From sequence record PZ386959.1: 64,000 bases of DNA. One strand, given 5' to 3'. The position numbers and the translations under genes are program-made. This DNA is from a phage. This document shows, one piece after another, positions 58,545 through 63,553 of the stretch (its first letter is position 1; every line of letters begins with the position of its first letter). Below the pieces are notes generated by a model that was given only the letters and a program-made list of their open reading frames with translations, ran no database searches and was not told the DNA's origin.

Positions 58545-58618
58545 CTCTGTTTAGCTCAGCTTGGTAGAGCGTTCCGTTTGGGGCGGTAAGGCCGGAGGTT
58601 CAAGTCCTCCAACAGAGA
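58545..58618 (+). tRNA. tRNA-Pro(TGG)
   Basis: Acceptor CTCTGTT/AACAGAG, D-stem GCTC/GAGC, T-arm GGAGG-TTCAAGT-CCTCC, CCA encoded; anticodon loop TTTGGGG. Confidence 0.6.
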
Positions 58619-58628
58619 CCAAATTAAT

Positions 58629-58703
58629 GTTCCAGTAGACAAAATGGTAAAGTCACCACTCTTTCAAAGTGGATATCTGAGGGTTCAAATCCCTTCTGGA
58701 ACG
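58629..58703 (+). tRNA. tRNA-Glu(TTC)
   Basis: Acceptor GTTCCAG/CTGGAAC, anticodon stem CCACT/AGTGG, loop CTTTCAA, CCA encoded. Confidence 0.6.
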
Positions 58704-58797
58704 CCAGTTTTGACAGAAGACCAATTACAGCAAACTTAATCTTATTCATCTGAAGGTAAATCGGACAAAGAAGAGATTTGGTCTGGTCATTAAGAAT

Positions 58798-58871
58798 TGC
58801 GGGTATAGAGAAAGGGCGTCTCACATGTCTCATTAGCATGGTATCGGCAGGTTCGACTCCTGCACCCGCCT
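58798..58871 (+). tRNA. tRNA-Met(CAT) (Met/fMet/Ile2 undetermined)
   Basis: T-arm GCAGG-TTCGACT-CCTGC, D-stem GAGA/TCTC, anticodon loop CTCATTA; acceptor boundaries uncertain by 1 nt. Confidence 0.5.
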
Positions 58872-58951
58872 CCAATTTTGCAGAAGACCGTATTCAGCAA
58901 CAAAATACTTTTTGCGGATAAAAGAAAAAACACGGTCTGGCAATGTATTAA

Positions 58952-59025
58952 GGTTAGGAAGCACATAAGGTATGTGCGGTCGCCTGTTAAGCGAATGGCA
59001 CAGGGTTCGAATCCCTGACTAACCG
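58952..59025 (+). tRNA. tRNA-Asn(GTT)
   Basis: Acceptor GGTTAGG/ACTAACC, T-arm CAGGG-TTCGAAT-CCCTG, loop CTGTTAA, CCA encoded. Confidence 0.55.
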
Positions 59026-59036
59026 CCAAATTAAAT

Positions 59037-59121
59037 GTGTCGTTATCCCGTAGATGGTAGCGGTGGGGACTGTAAATCCCTTGTCATTGAGACTCGGTAG
59101 GTTCGACTCCTACACGGCACA
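59037..59121 (+). tRNA. tRNA-Tyr(GTA)
   Basis: 85 nt with long variable arm; acceptor GTGTCGT/ACGGCAC, loop CTGTAAA, T-arm GTAGG-TTCGACT-CCTAC. Confidence 0.55.
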
Positions 59122-59129
59122 CCAATAAA

Positions 59130-59204
59130 GGTTATGTAGTTTAATCTGGTTAAAATACTCCCCTGTCACGGGAGATGATGAGGGTTCAAATCCCTTCGTA
59201 ACCG
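59130..59204 (+). tRNA. tRNA-Asp(GTC)
   Basis: Acceptor GGTTATG/CGTAACC, anticodon stem CTCCC/GGGAG, loop CTGTCAC. Confidence 0.6.
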
Positions 59205-59419
59205 CCAAATTATAATAAGTATTTCAAAATGATGTTTTGAGAGGGCTATTTAGCCCCTCCCTTAAAGAGTTCTTACGAGTATTCTTTAAAGGAGCAGAAG
59301 ACCAAATTCAGCAAATATGTATGATATTTTCAAGCCAATTTAATTTTGAAAAAATTTAAAACTTGGTCTGGCTCAACAAATTTACAGAAGACCGTTTACA
59401 GCAAAAACTTAAACAATCT

Positions 59420-59466
59420 ATTTCTCCGGTAAAGAAAAGGCGAAGGTTCGATTCCTTCACTCGGCA
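59420..59466 (+). pseudogene. tRNA-like 3' fragment (degenerate tRNA)
   Basis: Good T-arm GAAGG-TTCGATT-CCTTC plus acceptor-like ACTCGGC but no complementary 5' acceptor found upstream. Confidence 0.35.
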
Positions 59467-59666
59467 GATGTCGAGTTGGTGTAATGGTAGCACTTAAGAT
59501 GATAAACAACGGTCTGGTAATTATCTTTGTAGATAAGTTATTAAGCTTACCTGTGAGTATGCGACCACAAAGGGTGGATGGGTAAATTCTAGATTTAAAC
59601 CCAAAAAGGCACATCGCTACAGACCTTAAGCAAGTCTGGGTAGCTTATCTACAAAGATAATTTAAT

Positions 59667-59739
59667 GGAAGTGTAGCAGAATGGTGATGCGGCAGACTTT
59701 TAATCTGACAGGCGATGGGTTCGAATCCCTCCACTTCTA
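59667..59739 (+). tRNA. tRNA-Lys(TTT)
   Basis: Acceptor GGAAGTG/CACTTCT, anticodon stem GCAGA/TCTGA, loop CTTTTAA, CCA encoded. Confidence 0.55.
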
Positions 59740-59820
59740 CCAAATTCACCCTTAACTGAGAAACACCTGCGCGGCTGGAAACACCCACTCAACAGTTTCT
59801 CTAACTAGGGTACTTATTCT

Positions 59821-59894
59821 GGTTCAGTCGCAGATAAGGTAATGCAAGGGTTTCATAAGCCCTATGAATGTGAGTTCGATTCTCACCTGAACCT
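59821..59894 (+). tRNA. tRNA-Met(CAT), second copy (possible initiator or Ile2)
   Basis: Acceptor GGTTCAG/CTGAACC, anticodon stem with three G-C pairs (AGGGT/GCCCT), loop TTCATAA. Confidence 0.55.
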
Positions 59895-59899
59895 CCAAT

Positions 59900-61616: not shown

Positions 61617-61638
61617 CCAATTTAAAGAGGCTATTTAG

Positions 61639-62196
61639 ATGAGATATTTGAAGTATGCTTCATGGATTTTCTTAGCTTTGTTAGAACCATTTGCAGCAAT
61701 CTTAGCAGTTATCTTAGCACCTTTTGTAGTTCCATTTTACAGTGAGAAGAAAGGACACTTACCTTTCGGATTTAGATGGATGGAAACTTATGACAACCCA
61801 ATTGATGGTGATGAAGGTCACGTTAAGAGATGGGCTAATATTAGATGGATTGGTAAGCTTGGTGTCTATATGCAGAGAGTCGGTTGGCTCTGGAGAAACA
61901 AAGCTTATAACTTCTCTTACCATGTATTAGGAAGAGATGTAAAAGATGTTACCAAGTGGAAAGGCAATATCAACGTAAGTTCTAACCCTGAAGATAATCA
62001 GACAGGTTATCTCCTAATGTGGAACAGCAATGCTTGGGGATTATTCGCTTTTATCCCATCAATTAAAATCTTTGGTAAACAGTTTTACTGGAGAATTTAT
62101 ATTGGGTGGAAGCTAAAAAGTGTTGTCCCAGAAGAAAGAGCATTCTCAAGGGAAAGAGTTATGTTGGCATTCTTTATTCATCCACTAAGAAAGTAA
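61639..62196 (+). CDS. membrane protein embedded in the tRNA cluster
   Basis: 185 aa; N-terminal TM helix (WIFLALLEPFAAILAVILAPFVV), Trp-rich. Confidence 0.5.
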   Translation: MRYLKYASWIFLALLEPFAAILAVILAPFVVPFYSEKKGHLPFGFRWMETYDNPIDGDEGHVKRWANIRWIGKLGVYMQRVGWLWRNKAYNFSYHVLGRDVKDVTKWKGNINVSSNPEDNQTGYLLMWNSNAWGLFAFIPSIKIFGKQFYWRIYIGWKLKSVVPEERAFSRERVMLAFFIHPLRK

Positions 62197-62204
62197 AGAT
62201 TTAA

Positions 62205-62277
62205 AGGGGATTAGTTTACAAGGTTAAAACCTCGGTCTTTGAAATCGAAGAAGTTGGTTCAATTCCAACATCCCCCG
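62205..62277 (+). tRNA. tRNA-Gln(TTG)
   Basis: Acceptor AGGGGAT/ATCCCCC (A1-C72 mismatch), loop CTTTGAA, T-arm GTTGG-TTCAATT-CCAAC. Confidence 0.55.
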
Positions 62278-62282
62278 CCAAT

Positions 62283-62358
62283 GCTCCATTACTCCAATTG
62301 GCAGAGAGGCCAGACTTAAAATCTGTGTTATGTATCGGTTCGAATCCGATATGGAGTA
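62283..62358 (+). tRNA. tRNA-Leu(TAA)? short variable arm
   Basis: Acceptor GCTCCAT/ATGGAGT, loop CTTAAAA, T-arm ATCGG-TTCGAAT-CCGAT; isotype tentative. Confidence 0.45.
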
Positions 62359-62366
62359 CCAAATTT

Positions 62367-62439
62367 AGCGGTATAGCATAACTGGTAATGCAGCAGTCTC
62401 TGAAGCTGTCTTATTAAGGTTCAAATCCTTATGCCGCTG
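62367..62439 (+). tRNA. tRNA-Gln(CTG)
   Basis: Acceptor AGCGGTA/TGCCGCT, D-stem GCAT/ATGC, loop CTCTGAA. Confidence 0.5.
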
Positions 62440-62471
62440 CCACTTCTAAGGGTTCTTACGAGAGTCCTTAA

Positions 62472-62546
62472 ATGTGGCCTTATCATAAATGGTAATGACC
62501 CATGCTGTGAACATGGTCTATACGGGTTCAAATCCCGTAGGTCACC
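62472..62546 (+). tRNA. tRNA-His(GTG)
   Basis: Acceptor GTGGCCT/AGGTCAC, discriminator C, anticodon stem CCATG/CATGG perfect, loop CTGTGAA. Confidence 0.6.
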
Positions 62547-62555
62547 CCAATTTAT

Positions 62556-62628
62556 AGTCCAAGTAGCTTATATGGTTAAAGCGCGTGTCTGAAAAACATG
62601 AGAAGAGGGTTCAAATCCCACTGGACTA
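62556..62628 (+). tRNA. tRNA-Phe(GAA)
   Basis: D-stem GCTT/AAGC, loop CTGAAAA, T-loop TTCAAAT; acceptor boundary ambiguous by 1 nt. Confidence 0.5.
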
Positions 62629-62647
62629 CCAATTTCAAAGGTGCTTA

Positions 62648-63382
62648 ATGAAAGAGATGACAGAACAAGGTAAGGAGATTTTTAATCTCTTAAAAACTGG
62701 TAAAGGGTTCTCTAATCCCCTTATTACTGGTGCAGCAGTTCTCGGTGGAACCGTAGCTGCCTCTACATCACTTGTAAGCTCTATTAGCTCTGTAACAGAC
62801 CCTACAATAAAAGATAAACTTGTTGCTGCTGGACTTACAACAGTTCTGCTTAACAGCTTTACAACGAGTCTGACAAGCACTACATCAACTACCAAAACGC
62901 TGACGGATTACGGTCAAAAGTCCATTGATGAGTTTTCATCACGTATGCAGGTAGCAAAAGGTTATTCTAATGTTATGGGTGCAGCAGGTGAACAAGTCGG
63001 TTGTACACCATTTAGTGGTATTATGGGTGTTGCTACAGAGTATGGTCAAAAAGCTATTGATACGATTAACAGTGCACTAGACGGTGTTAATGATGTATTA
63101 AGTGACTTACAAGACGCTATTGACAAAAGTCTTGATACTATTTCTGATTTAGCTAACCAAGCTGTTAGTAAGATTAATGAAGGTATTTCGAAGATTACAG
63201 CTTATGCAGATGAAGTTGTGCAGATGATTGAAGAAGAAGCTGCTCTTATTGCAGAGTACCTTAAAACGAATATCAATGGGTTCTTAGCAGGTATCTTACC
63301 AGACTGGTTTGATGATGCTTGTAAAACTGGTGTAATTGATACTATTGCAACACCAGAAATGAAGAACGCATTACGGAAATAA
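62648..63382 (+). CDS. Ser/Thr-rich hypothetical protein
   Basis: 244 aa from MKEMTEQ; track start 62585 would overlap tRNA-Phe, so start moved to the ATG at 62648. Confidence 0.5.
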   Translation: MKEMTEQGKEIFNLLKTGKGFSNPLITGAAVLGGTVAASTSLVSSISSVTDPTIKDKLVAAGLTTVLLNSFTTSLTSTTSTTKTLTDYGQKSIDEFSSRMQVAKGYSNVMGAAGEQVGCTPFSGIMGVATEYGQKAIDTINSALDGVNDVLSDLQDAIDKSLDTISDLANQAVSKINEGISKITAYADEVVQMIEEEAALIAEYLKTNINGFLAGILPDWFDDACKTGVIDTIATPEMKNALRK

Positions 63383-63383
63383 C

Positions 63384-63473
63384 GGAAGATTAACCCTAAA
63401 AGGTAAGGGAGCAGTTTGCTAAACTGCCAGTAGCTGAGAAATCGGTGTACCAGTTCAAGTCTGGTATCTTCCT
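63384..63473 (+). tRNA. tRNA-Ser(GCT)
   Basis: 90 nt; perfect acceptor GGAAGAT/ATCTTCC, anticodon stem GCAGT/ACTGC, loop TTGCTAA, long variable arm. Confidence 0.6.
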
Positions 63474-63480
63474 CCAATTT

Positions 63481-63553
63481 GAATCCGTGACAGAAATGGC
63501 TATGTGCCTGTCTGCAAAACAGGTTTATAAGGGTTCGAGTCCCTTCGGATTCT
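63481..63553 (+). tRNA. tRNA-Cys(GCA)
   Basis: Perfect acceptor GAATCCG/CGGATTC, anticodon stem CCTGT/ACAGG, loop CTGCAAA, T-arm AAGGG-TTCGAGT-CCCTT. Confidence 0.65.

What the first reader, a model, noticed from the sequence alone, without database searches (positions are those of the whole stretch)
58545..63553. About 27 tRNA genes that appear to cover all 20 amino acids
I could fold 27 cloverleaf-compatible genes by hand (conserved T-loops, paired acceptor stems, mostly encoded CCA). Anticodons read as Pro, Glu, Met x2, Asn, Tyr, Asp, Lys x2 (TTT/CTT), Ile, Arg x2, Trp, Ser x2, Leu x3, Ala, Gly, Thr, Val, Gln x2 (TTG/CTG), His, Phe and Cys. A full set is unusually extensive for a phage. 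The cluster also contains two protein genes (61639..62196 membrane protein, 62648..63382 Ser/Thr-rich protein) and internal promoters and terminators.
Basis: seen in the sequence. Interest (0 to 1): 0.55.

Follow-up and report, generated by a model that had tools for sequence, protein, structure and literature searches.

The report
Phage tRNA operon with Y-like RNAs
This is the well-known tRNA gene cluster of a FelixO1-like E. coli phage (26 solid tRNA genes plus an odd tryptophan one), but its "empty" gaps hold four small RNAs that look like partners of the Ro60-like protein encoded just upstream, which nobody seems to have pinned down before.

Summary
The window is a Felixounavirus (97.9% identical to phage vB_EcoM_ULIM8). 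Rfam passes 24 at its gathering score. The 27th gene, the only Trp (60441-60523), is rejected by both scanners. It is nonetheless conserved, shows compensatory changes in three helices, and keeps a CCA anticodon, G73 and an encoded CCA end; its D region is aberrant. So 19 amino acids are secure and the twentieth is plausible. Standard wobble lets the set read only 44-52 of 61 codons.

The array is already annotated in hundreds of relatives, and a relative's tRNA-Ser(UGA) works in translation.

The new part lies in the gaps. The 471-aa gene upstream (56964-58379) has the Ro60 fold. Four conserved elements (58714-59518) share a terminal stem and a CAGCAA motif. One carries a permuted tRNA-like module (T arm, closed acceptor hairpin, D arm), as bacterial YrlA Y RNAs do. 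The same RNA type sits beside homologous Ro60-like genes in distant phages. A model built only from those phages finds the window's elements. No Rfam family covers them.

The parts
56964..58379 (+). Ro60-like protein gene (471 aa; Pfam DUF2828 + DUF7788; vWA domain with a DxSxS MIDAS motif)
   Evidence: Pfam match. PHROG 850, named 'RNA-binding protein'. AlphaFold2 model with pLDDT 88 and pTM 0.87. The ten best Foldseek PDB matches are all Ro60/TROVE structures over the full length, E 3e-8 to 8e-6, TM 0.48-0.66. D279, S281 and S283 are invariant in 36 homologues. The Bas63 homologue gp130 was reported as Ro60-like and as a counter to the Ppl defence (PMC11482910).
58398..58426 (+). promoter-like site, TTGACA-17-TAATAT
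   Evidence: Consensus match only.
58489..58518 (+). promoter-like site, TTGACA-18-TAAAGT with an extended TG, 27 nt upstream of the first tRNA
   Evidence: Consensus match only.
58545..58621 (+). tRNA-Pro (UGG)
   Evidence: ARAGORN; Rfam 57.7 bits.
58629..58706 (+). tRNA-Glu (UUC)
   Evidence: ARAGORN; Rfam 60.4 bits.
58714..58787 (+). Y-like RNA element E1. Terminal stem AGACCAA/UUGGUCU at 58718-58784; motif UUACAGCAA.
   Evidence: Model R1, built only from distant phages, scores it 31.6 bits, E 1.4e-4. Conserved in 27 related loci, with a variable interior and fixed ends.
58798..58874 (+). tRNA with anticodon CAU ('Met1'). The 1:72 pair is always mismatched, there is an extra nucleotide before the D stem, and position 37 is U.
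   Evidence: ARAGORN. No Rfam hit even at E<=10. The T stem covaries (GCAGG/CCUGC, GUUGG/CCAAC, GUAGG/CCUAC).
58881..58941 (+). Y-like RNA element E2. Stem AGACCG/CGGUCU at 58885-58938; motif AUUCAGCAA.
   Evidence: R1 scores it 36 bits, E 1.4e-5. Conserved in 31 loci.
58952..59028 (+). tRNA-Asn (GUU)
   Evidence: Rfam 48 bits.
59037..59124 (+). tRNA-Tyr (GUA), long variable arm
   Evidence: ARAGORN. Rfam sees it only as tRNA-Sec, 29.6 bits. Annotated as a pseudogene or as Tyr in relatives.
59130..59207 (+). tRNA-Asp (GUC)
   Evidence: Rfam 65.2 bits.
59295..59372 (+). Y-like RNA element E3. Stem AGACCAA/UUGGUCU at 59299-59369; motif AUUCAGCAA.
   Evidence: R1 scores it 30.0 bits, E 3.3e-4. 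Conserved in 31 loci.
59385..59518 (+). Y-like RNA element E4 with a YrlA-type permuted tRNA-like module. 5' stem 59389-59396, CAGCAA 59399-59404, V hairpin 59421-59437, T arm 59442-59458, closed acceptor-like hairpin 59459-59476, D arm 59479-59493, 3' stem 59508-59515.
   Evidence: The MFE fold gives exactly these helices, z -2.0. The acceptor-like hairpin covaries completely (ACUCGGC/GUCGAGU; ACACG/CGUGU; ACCCUUC/GAAGGGU). The same module order occurs in at least 12 elements of distant phages. R1 gives a partial hit to the 5' part, 15.4 bits, E 0.62. Rfam's tRNA model gives a partial hit at 59409-59459, 22 bits.
59667..59742 (+). tRNA-Lys (UUU)
59821..59897 (+). tRNA with anticodon CAU ('Met2'). 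The 1:72 pair is matched, so it is elongator Met or possibly lysidine-Ile; not resolved.
   Evidence: Rfam 55.3 bits. The T stem covaries.
59900..59975 (+). tRNA-Ile (GAU)
59991..60019 (+). internal promoter-like site, TTGACA-17-TATAGT (11 of 12 matches)
   Evidence: Consensus match only.
60222..60298 (+). tRNA-Arg (UCU); not called in about a third of relatives
60441..60523 (+). Non-canonical tRNA-Trp-like gene. Acceptor 60441-47 / 60513-19, anticodon CCA at 60481-83, G73 at 60520, CCA at 60521-23. Seven extra nucleotides precede a 3-bp D stem; the 31:39 pair is a C.A mismatch.
   Evidence: Not called by ARAGORN. Rfam tRNA-Sec 23 bits. Conserved in 27 loci. 6 of 20 pairs show double changes, against 0 in slid controls.
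60537..60626 (+). tRNA-Ser (UGA); ends CCU rather than CCA
   Evidence: Rfam 31.1 bits. It is 87/90 identical to the phage REP12 gene, with a compensatory change in the anticodon stem. The REP-phage tRNA-Ser(UGA) decodes TCR codons in Syn61-delta3 (PMC13596443, PMC12269064).
60881..60958 (+). tRNA-Leu (UAG)
60966..61041 (+). tRNA-Lys (CUU)
61048..61123 (+). tRNA-Ala (UGC)
61130..61204 (+). tRNA-Gly (UCC)
61212..61287 (+). tRNA-Thr (UGU)
61385..61459 (+). tRNA-Val (UAC)
61461..61538 (+). tRNA-Leu (CAA)
61544..61619 (+). tRNA-Arg (ACG)
61639..62196 (+). protein gene, 185 aa, DUF7338, predicted membrane protein
   Evidence: Pfam E 1.6e-61. PHROG 2143, function unknown. Two transmembrane domains are noted in the AYO145A record.
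62205..62280 (+). tRNA-Gln (UUG)
62283..62361 (+). tRNA-Leu (UAA)
62367..62442 (+). tRNA-Gln (CUG)
62474..62549 (+). tRNA-His (GUG)
62556..62631 (+). tRNA-Phe (GAA)
62648..63382 (+). protein gene, 244 aa, DUF7217, with a Ser/Thr-rich N-terminal part
   Evidence: Pfam E 2.2e-89. PHROG 2114, function unknown. The 62648 ATG start is the one used in three relatives.
63384..63476 (+). tRNA-Ser (GCU)
63481..63556 (+). tRNA-Cys (GCA)
63594..63653 (+). terminator-like compound hairpin (GCCCTG...CAGGGC) followed by TTTTTT, just after the last tRNA
   Evidence: Read from the sequence. The scanner does not call it because the loop exceeds 8 nt. The scanner does call a second site at 63719-63736.

Best explanation
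The region is the tRNA operon of a FelixO1-like (Felixounavirus) coliphage.

**Layout.** It holds 26 canonical tRNA genes for 19 amino acids and one structurally odd tRNA-Trp-like gene. All lie on one strand. They sit downstream of sigma-70-like promoters placed just after a Ro60-like protein gene, and the cluster ends at an intrinsic terminator in front of the terminase genes.

**Expression (inferred).** The genes are closely packed, mostly 1-8 nt apart, and nearly all encode their own CCA. They are presumably transcribed as long precursors and cut out by the host's RNase P and 3' processing enzymes.

**Role of the tRNAs.** Half of the anticodons start with U and read A-ending codons. The AT-rich phage (38.8% GC) uses those codons 2-9 times more often than E. 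coli does. The set therefore boosts translation of phage genes. Because it duplicates almost every host isoacceptor family, it can also keep translation going when host tRNAs are missing or are cleaved by defence nucleases. Replacing a missing host tRNA has been shown for tRNA-Ser(UGA) of close relatives; the rest is inferred.

**The gaps (probable, inferred).** The first kilobase of the operon also carries four non-tRNA genes, E1-E4. Each is a terminal stem beginning AGACC, followed by a single-stranded UU(A/U)CAGCAA motif and a variable interior. E4's interior is a circularly permuted tRNA mimic: variable hairpin, T arm, closed 7-bp acceptor hairpin, D arm. These are most likely Y-RNA-like ligands of the upstream Ro60-like protein. 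They would be released by the same tRNA-processing cuts and would form a phage ribonucleoprotein that acts on RNA turnover or on a host defence.
For: **tRNAs**
- ARAGORN genes and Rfam passes 24 at gathering score.
- The order and anticodons are the same in 29 related loci.
- Compensatory changes occur in the Met1, Met2, Ser and Trp-like helices.
- CCA is encoded in 25 of 26 genes.
- The cluster is 97.9% identical to annotated Felixounavirus genomes.
- Codons that pair Watson-Crick with the anticodons are enriched in the phage relative to E. coli. Mean log2 ratio is +0.42 against -0.40 for the other codons. AGA is 9.2x, ACA 3.8x, UCA 3.3x and AAG 2.9x.

**Ro60-like protein**
- The ten best Foldseek PDB matches are all Ro60 structures.
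- The MIDAS residues are invariant across homologues.
- The Bas63 homologue was reported as Ro60-like (PMC11482910).

**Y-like RNAs**
- Four copies in the window share the same 5' and 3' ends.
- Scanning 80 loci that encode 29-47%-identical homologues of the protein found 105 such elements on the gene's strand. There were 14 on the opposite strand and 7-10 in shuffled sequence. 69 of the 105 lie within 600 nt of the gene.
- 24 of 49 loci with no tRNA at all still have an element next to the gene.
- All 7 terminal-stem pairs covary.
- A covariance model built only from distant phages finds E2, E1 and E3 as the only hits with E<0.001 in the 64-kb window.
- Out of sample, that model gives 27 hits on the gene strand and 2 on the opposite strand. 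It gives none in 50 kb of E. coli.
- E4's V-T-AS-D module order matches the published YrlA architecture. The same order recurs in at least 12 distinct elements.
Against: - No expression, processing or binding data exist for this phage, for the Trp-like gene or for E1-E4.
- The codon-usage enrichment is only marginal (one-sided Mann-Whitney p 0.064).
- Bas63 tRNA genes were mostly dispensable on four laboratory strains (PMC11482910).
- The Rfam YrlA model does not hit E4.
- The YrlA 5' motif GNCGAAN0-1G is absent.
- The protein is related to Ro60 only at fold level. There is no Pfam TROVE hit and no sequence-profile hit to any solved Ro60.
- The terminal stems used for the covariation count were preselected by a scan that required pairing.
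- Promoter-like and terminator-like sites are no more frequent than in shuffles.
Confidence: 0.75

Rival explanations
1. E1-E4 are not Ro60 ligands. They are passive spacer hairpins or processing signals of the tRNA precursor, and E4 is a rearranged tRNA remnant such as a leftover of a tandem duplication.
For: They sit between tRNA genes. There are no binding data. The Rfam YrlA model does not hit them and the known Ro-binding motifs are absent. Other strong hairpins of unknown role lie in the same cluster, at 59519-59666 and 60776-60880.
Against: The same stem-plus-CMGCAA design lies next to the Ro60-like gene in distant phages, including 24 loci with no tRNA genes nearby. It is strongly strand-specific, 105 vs 14. 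A model trained on those loci recovers E1-E3. E4's closed acceptor hairpin changes sequence completely while keeping its pairing and its exact junction with the T stem and the U-R linker. A decaying remnant would not do that.
Confidence: 0.25
2. The tRNA set exists mainly as a counter-defence rather than for codon matching. It would supply nuclease-resistant substitutes when host anticodon nucleases or tRNA-depleting systems fire. The Ro60-like/Y-like particle would belong to the same counter-defence module.
For: The set duplicates nearly every host isoacceptor family, including abundant ones with no codon-usage rationale: GAA, AAC, UUC and CAG have phage/host ratios of about 1 or below. The codon-usage signal is only marginal (p 0.064). 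Bas63 tRNAs are dispensable on laboratory strains, and gp130 counters the Ppl defence (PMC11482910). Phage tRNAs that evade nucleases are discussed in PMC13596443 and PMC7824862.
Against: No nuclease-resistance feature was tested here. The strongest enrichments (AGA, ACA, UCA, AAG, CUA, UUA) fit simple codon compensation. The two roles are not exclusive.
Confidence: 0.4
3. A sizeable part of the array, including the Trp-like gene, Met1, Tyr and others, consists of decaying pseudogenes. The functional set would then be well short of 20 amino acids.
For: Annotations of relatives based on tRNAscan-SE mark Tyr, Leu-UAG, His and Cys as pseudogenes and omit six others. Published counts are 17-23 (PMC8300805). 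Rfam misses Met1 and Tyr. No scanner calls the Trp-like gene.
Against: All of these genes are conserved in position and sequence across the genus. Changes that do occur are compensatory. CCA ends are kept. The Trp-like gene keeps its CCA anticodon, G73, A1-U72 and G5-C68.
Confidence: 0.15

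Closest known systems
tRNA gene arrays of Felixounavirus / Ounavirinae phages (Felix O1, wV8, AYO145A, Bas63, REP5-12)
   Same: Same genes in the same order, with up to 97.9% nucleotide identity. Same flanking genes: the Ro60-like 'RNA-binding protein' upstream and terminase downstream.
   Different: Nothing essential. Copy content varies slightly between strains: Arg-UCU, Asp, Lys-UUU or Tyr is not called in some. Two loci of wV8-like size carry a different 71-nt tRNA-Trp in the same slot.
YrlA/YrlB Y RNAs bound by the bacterial Ro60 orthologue Rsr (Salmonella, Mycobacterium smegmatis, mycobacteriophages; Chen et al. 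2014, PMC4201824)
   Same: They are encoded within a few kb of a Ro60-type gene on the same strand. There is a terminal stem with a short conserved single-stranded motif near the 5' end. In one RNA per locus there is a tRNA-like module in the order V, T, closed acceptor stem, D. Shorter companions lack the full module. E4 has a 7-bp acceptor-like stem, as M. smegmatis YrlA does.
   Different: The conserved motif is C(A/C)GCAA, not GNCGAAN0-1G. The Rfam YrlA model does not detect them. The partner protein belongs to Pfam DUF2828/DUF7788, not TROVE. The RNAs are embedded in a tRNA operon. Binding has not been shown.
Thermus phage phiLo Ro60 with Yrl1/Yrl2 (PMC12135203)
   Same: A phage-encoded Ro60-fold protein with two or more adjacent small structured RNAs. 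The phiLo structure (PDB 9kop, 9l5y) is among the best structural matches to the window's protein.
   Different: The phiLo RNAs carry a CGAA bulge motif and lie upstream of the gene. That protein is a recognisable TROVE protein, and phiLo has no large tRNA array around it.
Phage T4 and T5 tRNA clusters (from general knowledge; not tested here)
   Same: Compact clusters of tRNA genes processed by host enzymes. The T4 cluster also encodes two stable small RNAs of unknown function (species 1 and 2).
   Different: T4 has only 8 tRNAs and no Ro60-like gene. I did not test any sequence or structural relation between the T4 small RNAs and E1-E4.

Membership tests
tRNA (Rfam RF00005 / ARAGORN cloverleaf) | Cloverleaf scoring above the family threshold | tested here: met
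   26 of 27 by ARAGORN and 24 of 27 at Rfam gathering score. Exceptions are Met1 (no Rfam hit), Tyr (only tRNA-Sec, 29.6 bits) and the Trp-like gene.
tRNA-Trp, for 60441-60523 | Called as a tRNA by automated scanners | tested here: not met
   ARAGORN does not call it at default, 90% or 80% thresholds. Rfam gives only tRNA-Sec, 23 bits, E 0.41.
tRNA-Trp, for 60441-60523 | Anticodon CCA in a U33-NNN-A37 loop, discriminator G73, 7-bp acceptor stem, T arm, encoded CCA | tested here: met
   Read from the sequence. A1-U72 and G5-C68 are also present; these are E. coli TrpRS identity elements as I recall them from Himeno et al. 1991, which I did not check. Helices are supported by 6 pairs with double changes.
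tRNA-Trp, for 60441-60523 | Canonical D arm: two nucleotides after the acceptor stem, then a 3-4 bp stem | tested here: not met
   Nine nucleotides separate the acceptor stem from a 3-bp D-like stem (CUC/GAG, loop UAAGGCAU). The anticodon stem has a C.A mismatch at 31:39, or equivalently a 9-nt loop.
tRNA-Trp, for 60441-60523 | Aminoacylation with tryptophan | not testable with these tools
   Needs charging assays or tRNA-seq.
Felixounavirus tRNA operon | Sequence identity and synteny with annotated members of the genus | tested here: met
   97.9% identity over 5.3 kb to vB_EcoM_ULIM8. 241 records cover at least 80% of the region. Gene order is the same in fjerdesal, LTH02, AYO145A and REP12.
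Ro60 / TROVE proteins, for ORF 56964-58379 | Match to the Pfam TROVE domain, or sequence similarity to known Ro60 | tested here: not met
   Pfam gives only DUF2828 and DUF7788. phmmer and a 36-sequence profile find no Ro60 among PDB sequences at E<=10.
Ro60 / TROVE proteins, for ORF 56964-58379 | Fold: alpha-helical repeat ring plus a C-terminal vWA domain with a MIDAS motif | tested here: met
   The Foldseek top ten are all Ro60 structures, aligned over the full length. DxSxS (D279, S281, S283), T349 and D381 are invariant.
Ro60 / TROVE proteins, for ORF 56964-58379 | Binds Y RNAs or misfolded RNAs | not testable with these tools
   No data. Only the genomic association with E-type RNAs is available.
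YrlA (Rfam RF02553), for E4 | Match to the family covariance model | tested here: not met
   No YrlA hit on 59385-59518 at E<=10. No YrlA hit at gathering score in 11 distant loci.
YrlA, for E4 | GNCGAAN0-1G motif near the 5' end | tested here: not met
   The motif at that position is UUUACAGCAA. Across phages it is C(A/C)GCAA.
YrlA, for E4 | tRNA-like domain in the order V, T, closed acceptor stem, D, enclosed by a terminal helix | tested here: met
   MFE fold, covariation of the acceptor-like hairpin, module parse in 12 or more elements, compared with the description in PMC4201824.
YrlA / Y RNAs, for E1-E4 | Encoded within about 4 kb of the Ro60 orthologue on the same strand | tested here: met
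   E1-E4 lie 335-1140 nt downstream of the gene's stop codon on the same strand. In distant phages 69 of 105 elements lie within 600 nt of the gene.

The most novel reading that the evidence does not exclude
Felixounaviruses and many unrelated large phages may carry an undescribed branch of the Ro60/Y-RNA system. The protein partner would be a DUF2828-type Ro60-fold protein. The RNA partners would be a family of small RNAs defined by an AGR-initiated terminal stem plus a C(A/C)GCAA motif, some of them permuted or complete tRNA mimics. In FelixO1-like phages these RNAs are built into the tRNA operon, so the host's tRNA-processing enzymes would release them. The resulting particle would be what counters a host defence (Ppl in Bas63), or would guard the phage's own tRNA pool.
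Probability: 0.5. Interest if true: 0.7.

Novelty: new variant of a known kind. Interest (0 to 1): 0.45.

Why it matters
The tRNA array itself adds nothing new. It is annotated in hundreds of Felixounavirus genomes, and its function has already been exploited in recoded-genome work.

What would matter is the content of its gaps. A 2024 preprint showed that the Ro60-like protein of the related phage Bas63 counters the Ppl defence. The authors guessed that "some tRNA genes are possibly Y RNAs" but did not identify any RNA. The four elements mapped here give concrete candidates with coordinates, a conserved motif and a terminal stem to mutate. They sit in a genetically tractable E. coli phage.

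The same RNA/protein pairing in dozens of uncultured phages suggests a widespread family that current RNA-family libraries do not cover. It would extend the Ro60/Y-RNA/tRNA-mimic theme to a new protein family and a new genomic context.

Tried and rejected
- **ARAGORN at lowered thresholds** (90%, 80%) to rescue the Trp-like gene. It gave no call, only spurious extra hits on the opposite strand.
- **Rfam at E<=10 over 58300-64000.** There was no YrlA hit on E4. The weak tmRNA-type hits (59917-60101 at 29.2 bits against a threshold of 47; 60033-60221 at 15.7 bits) and the Dictyostelium, miRNA and plastid hits are far below threshold. I treated them as noise or as mirror images of tRNAs.
- **Sequence searches of the 471-aa protein** and of its 36-sequence profile against PDB sequences. 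No Ro60 match appeared, so the relationship is visible only by fold.
- **NCBIfam scan.** No family for any of the three proteins apart from a sub-threshold ZorA hit.
- **RNAalifold on MAFFT alignments of the YrlA-type elements.** It recovered only the T stem, because spacers of variable length misalign the other helices. For the same reason I did not build a covariance model of the tRNA-like module. I parsed the modules directly instead.
- **Classifying the two CAU tRNAs** as initiator, elongator or lysidine-Ile. This stays unresolved. Met1 has an initiator-like 1:72 mismatch and a CGCGGG start, but lacks the three G-C pairs in the anticodon stem.
- **Three reviews and papers** on bacterial Ro60 and RNA repair (PMC5062991, PMC10870794, PMC6047535) are not held in the library. 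The supplementary phage list of Chen et al. 2014 is not held either. I therefore cannot exclude that these RNAs are mentioned there.

Full report
**Identity of the window.** A megablast of 58400-63700 against 50,697 phage records finds 401 records. Of these, 241 cover at least 80% of the query. The best is Escherichia phage vB_EcoM_ULIM8, at 97.9% identity over 100% of the query. The matching records are Felixounavirus / Ounavirinae phages of Escherichia, Salmonella, Shigella and Citrobacter. The annotated records I opened (fjerdesal, LTH02, AYO145A, REP12) share one layout. A 471-aa gene named "vWFA protein" or "RNA-binding protein" comes first, then a run of tRNA genes interrupted by two small protein genes, then a 66-aa gene and the large terminase. 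The object is therefore the tRNA operon of a FelixO1-like phage.

**The observation: the 26 solid genes.** ARAGORN on the whole window gives 26 tRNA genes, all on the + strand between 58545 and 63556. Rfam's tRNA model passes 24 at its gathering score, at 31-65 bits. At E<=10 it also sees Tyr (59037) through the tRNA-Sec model at 29.6 bits, but not Met 58798-58874. That gene has three nucleotides instead of two before the D stem, U at position 37, and a 1:72 mismatch. It is conserved in every relative, and its T stem covaries (GCAGG/CCUGC, GUUGG/CCAAC, GUAGG/CCUAC), so it is a real structured gene. CCA is encoded in 25 of the 26 genes; Ser-UGA ends CCU. Most neighbouring genes are 1-8 nt apart.

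**The observation: the Trp gene.** In Rfam it reaches only 23 bits, E 0.41, against tRNA-Sec. The sequence at 60441-60523 has these tRNA features:
- a perfect 7-bp acceptor stem (AUGGGAC/GUCCCAU);
- discriminator G followed by an encoded CCA;
- a T arm;
- the anticodon loop C-U-CCA-A-A.

Two things are abnormal. Nine nucleotides rather than two separate the acceptor stem from a 3-bp D-like stem, and the 31:39 pair is a C.A mismatch.

The gene is present in 27 of the related loci. On nine distinct variants, the four-helix structure is 94% paired. Six of its 20 pairs show changes on both sides, against none in any of six slid controls. Four of those pairs are in the anticodon stem, one in the D-like stem and one in the T stem. 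Two loci of wV8-like genome size carry a different 71-nt tRNA-Trp(CCA) with a reduced D arm in the same slot, and ARAGORN does call that one.

My reading is that a Trp-type tRNA is kept under selection in this lineage, but in this phage its shape is non-canonical and its charging is unknown. None of the four annotated records I opened marks it.

**What "complete" means.** With E. coli-type wobble rules, the 25 distinct anticodons read 44 codons if U34 reads only A and G. They read 50 if U34 in four-codon boxes also reads U. Adding the Trp-like gene and one CAU gene acting as lysidine-Ile gives 46-52 of 61 codons. That covers 77-92% of the codons used in 62 phage ORFs of the window. GGU and GGC, together 46 per thousand codons, are not covered. 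The phage therefore still depends on host tRNAs, even if all 27 genes work.

**Is the set unusual?** Not for this group. In the 29 Felixounavirus-group loci I scanned, ARAGORN finds 21-26 genes in the same order wherever the contig spans the array. A comparative paper reports 17-23 per genome with tRNAscan-SE (PMC8300805). Counts depend on the tool: the AYO145A record marks four of the genes as pseudogenes and omits six.

**Function of the tRNAs.** The window is 38.8% GC. I compared the 62 phage ORFs with 34 annotated E. coli K-12 genes. Codons that pair Watson-Crick with a phage anticodon are on average enriched in the phage: mean log2 ratio +0.42, against -0.40 for the other codons (one-sided Mann-Whitney p 0.064). 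The largest enrichments are:

| Codon | Phage/host ratio |
|---|---|
| AGA | 9.2x |
| ACA | 3.8x |
| UCA | 3.3x |
| AAG | 2.9x |
| CUA | 2.1x |
| UUA | 2.0x |
| CCA | 1.9x |
| GUA | 1.8x |

This fits the classical codon-compensation idea but is only marginally significant, and many of the tRNAs duplicate abundant host species.

Direct functional evidence comes from close relatives. [quoted passage not shown] An evolved REP12 mutant triplicated part of the tRNA operon that contains that gene (PMC13596443, PMC12269064). The window's Ser(UGA) gene is 87/90 identical to REP12's, and two of the three differences form a compensatory pair. In Bas63 the tRNA genes were mostly dispensable on four laboratory strains. 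The authors consider them a conditional toolbox against tRNA-targeting defences (PMC11482910).

**The gene upstream.** ORF 56964-58379 matches Pfam DUF2828 and DUF7788 and PHROG 850, "RNA-binding protein". It shows no sequence similarity to any solved structure, either alone or as a 36-sequence profile. An AlphaFold2 model built from 36 homologues is confident, with pLDDT 88 and pTM 0.87. Its ten best Foldseek matches in the PDB are all Ro60 proteins aligned over their full length: Thermus phage phiLo, Deinococcus Rsr, and Xenopus and human Ro60. These score E 3e-8 to 8e-6 with TM 0.48-0.66. Generic vWA domains follow. The MIDAS residues DxSxS (D279, S281, S283), T349 and D381 are invariant. 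The Bas63 preprint reached the same structural conclusion for gp130. [quoted passage not shown]

**What is in the gaps.** Four stretches between the first tRNA genes share their ends:
- E1, 58714-58787;
- E2, 58881-58941;
- E3, 59295-59372;
- E4, 59385-59518.

Each begins CAGA-AGACC(R)-NNU(A/U)-CAGCAA and ends (Y)GGUCU-GG. AGAAGACC occurs 7 times in the window against 2.0 expected, and four of the seven are these sites. Across 27-31 related loci the ends are fixed, while the interiors of E1 and E2 exist in quite different versions.

E4 folds into an 8-bp terminal stem that encloses four modules:
- a small hairpin;
- a perfect T arm (GAAGG-UUCGAUU-CCUUC);
- a 7-bp hairpin that starts immediately after the T stem;
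- after a U-G linker, a D arm (GUGU-AAUGGUA-GCAC).

This is a tRNA whose acceptor stem is closed by a loop and whose anticodon stem is opened into the terminal helix. It is exactly the V, T, AS, D order described for bacterial YrlA Y RNAs (PMC4201824). The closed acceptor-like hairpin changes completely between relatives while keeping its pairing: ACUCGGC/GUCGAGU, ACACG/CGUGU, ACCCUUC/GAAGGGU.

**Do these RNAs go with the protein?** I fetched 80 loci from uncultured viral contigs that encode homologues of the protein at 29-47% identity. I scanned them for a stem of at least 7 bp starting (A/U)G(A/G), followed within 1-4 nt by C(A/C)GCAA. The results:

| Where scanned | Elements found |
|---|---|
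| Gene's strand | 105, in 56 loci |
| Opposite strand | 14 |
| Shuffled loci | 7-10 |

Of the 105, 69 lie within 600 nt of the gene and none lies inside it. 24 of 49 loci with no tRNA call still have an element within 1 kb of the gene. The association is therefore with the protein gene, not with tRNA genes.

Many loci carry two to six elements in tandem. At least 12 distinct elements contain the T arm, an abutting 6-8 bp closed hairpin, a U-R linker and a D arm. A few enclose a normal-order tRNA instead.

On an alignment of 31 short elements, all seven terminal-stem pairs show double changes, and 94.9% of cells are paired against 33-45% in slid controls. The caveat is that these stems were preselected for pairing.

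As an independent test I built a covariance model from those 31 distant elements only and searched the whole window on both strands. The only hits with E<0.001 were E2 (36 bits, E 1.4e-5), E1 (31.6 bits, 1.4e-4) and E3 (30.0 bits, 3.3e-4). A partial hit to the 5' part of E4 followed (15.4 bits, E 0.62). Everything else had E>1. On 61 further sources (740 kb) the model gave 27 hits on the gene's strand and 2 on the other. It gave none in 50 kb of E. coli.

Rfam has no family for these RNAs. The YrlA model does not hit E4, and 11 distant loci give only tRNA and one group I intron at gathering score.

**Mechanism: shown and inferred.**
- Shown by computation: the genes, their structures and covariation; the Ro60 fold of the upstream protein; and the cross-phage association of protein and RNA.
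- Shown by others in close relatives: translation by viral tRNA-Ser(UGA), and the counter-defence role of the Ro60-like protein.
- Inferred: the array is transcribed from the promoter-like sites at 58398, 58489 and 59991 and ends at the hairpin plus T-run at 63594-63653. Host tRNA-processing enzymes release both the tRNAs and E1-E4. E1-E4 bind the Ro60-like protein through the stem and the CAGCAA motif. E4's tRNA-like module recruits a tRNA-recognising factor, by analogy with YrlA, where Y RNAs tether Ro60 to exoribonucleases (PMC4201824, PMC12135203).

The promoter and terminator scans are not enriched over shuffles, so those sites are only plausible.

**Comparison and novelty.** As a tRNA array this is an ordinary, already annotated member of the Felixounavirus operon. 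As a Ro60/Y-RNA system it works like Rsr-YrlA/YrlB and like phiLo Ro60-Yrl1/2, but it fails the membership tests at sequence level. There is no TROVE Pfam match, no YrlA model match, and the conserved motif is different. I therefore file the RNA part as a new variant of a known kind. In the literature I could search, only the unspecific suggestion in the Bas63 preprint comes close.

**Verdict.** The complete-set claim is unproven, and the rarity claim is wrong. The interest lies in the four Y-like RNAs and their Ro60-like neighbour.

Noticed in passing
window 59519-59666 (+): A very stable structure with a 24-bp outer stem (MFE -49.7 kcal/mol, z -6.7, 0 of 200 shuffles as stable) lies between E4 and tRNA-Lys(UUU). 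It overlaps a 72-aa ORF on the opposite strand that relatives annotate as hypothetical. It could be another RNA gene or an RNase III-type processing site.
   Followed up: partly
window 60776-60880 (+): A long, almost perfect inverted repeat (about 26 bp, MFE -38.4, z -5.1) sits immediately upstream of tRNA-Leu(UAG).
   Followed up: no
window 59262-59294, 62445-62475 and 60186-60216 (+): Short hairpins with the stem CUUUAAAG/CUUUAAAG recur in front of tRNA genes. Two of them share the loop sequence UUCUUACGAG. They may be processing or protein-binding signals.
   Followed up: no
window 61292-61378 (+): The 97-nt gap between tRNA-Thr and tRNA-Val folds into a structure closed by AGAGGUC/GACCUCU (z -2.9). 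It begins AGR and ends YCU like the Y-like elements but lacks the CAGCAA motif. Model R1 does not hit it.
   Followed up: partly
window 58798-58874: The first CAU tRNA always has a pyrimidine-pyrimidine mismatch at 1:72 (U.C or C.C). Its 5' end is (C/U)GCGGG, like E. coli initiator tRNA, but it lacks the three G-C pairs of the initiator anticodon stem. Its identity (initiator-like, elongator Met or Ile) is open.
   Followed up: partly
L003 11394-11464 and L017 11388-11458: Two related phages of wV8-like genome size have a different 71-nt tRNA-Trp(CCA) with a reduced D arm in the slot between Ile and Ser. They lack both tRNA-Arg(UCU) and the window's Trp-like gene. This part of the operon is a swap-prone cassette region.
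   Followed up: partly
relatives of window 60299-60536 (phages Alf5 and bumzen): In some relatives an HNH endonuclease gene is annotated over the segment just upstream of the Trp-like gene. Together with the presence or absence of Arg(UCU), Asp, Lys(UUU) and Tyr calls among strains, this points to homing-endonuclease-driven turnover inside the array.
   Followed up: no
L072 5734-5833 and L079 5757-5854: In two distant phages the Y-like terminal stem and CMGCAA motif enclose a tRNA in normal order: Rfam tRNA at 52.9 bits (L072 5753-5824) and 41.3 bits (L079 5778-5843). The family therefore mixes permuted and unpermuted tRNA modules.
   Followed up: partly
L041-L115 (distant loci): 31 of 80 loci encoding the DUF2828-type Ro60-like protein also have tRNA genes within 6 kb, almost all on the same strand. 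The best-matching named proteins come from tRNA-rich Vibrio (phi-pp2, D479/D480) and Yersinia phages.
   Followed up: partly
L053 11696-11922: A group I intron (Rfam 71.5 bits) lies in an uncultured phage contig a few kb from its Ro60-like gene.
   Followed up: no
window 56511-56882 (+): The 123-aa gene just upstream of the Ro60-like gene belongs to DUF5681 (E 2.3e-14) and PHROG 4114. It is lysine/arginine-rich at its N terminus and is conserved next to the Ro60-like gene in Felixounaviruses.
   Followed up: no
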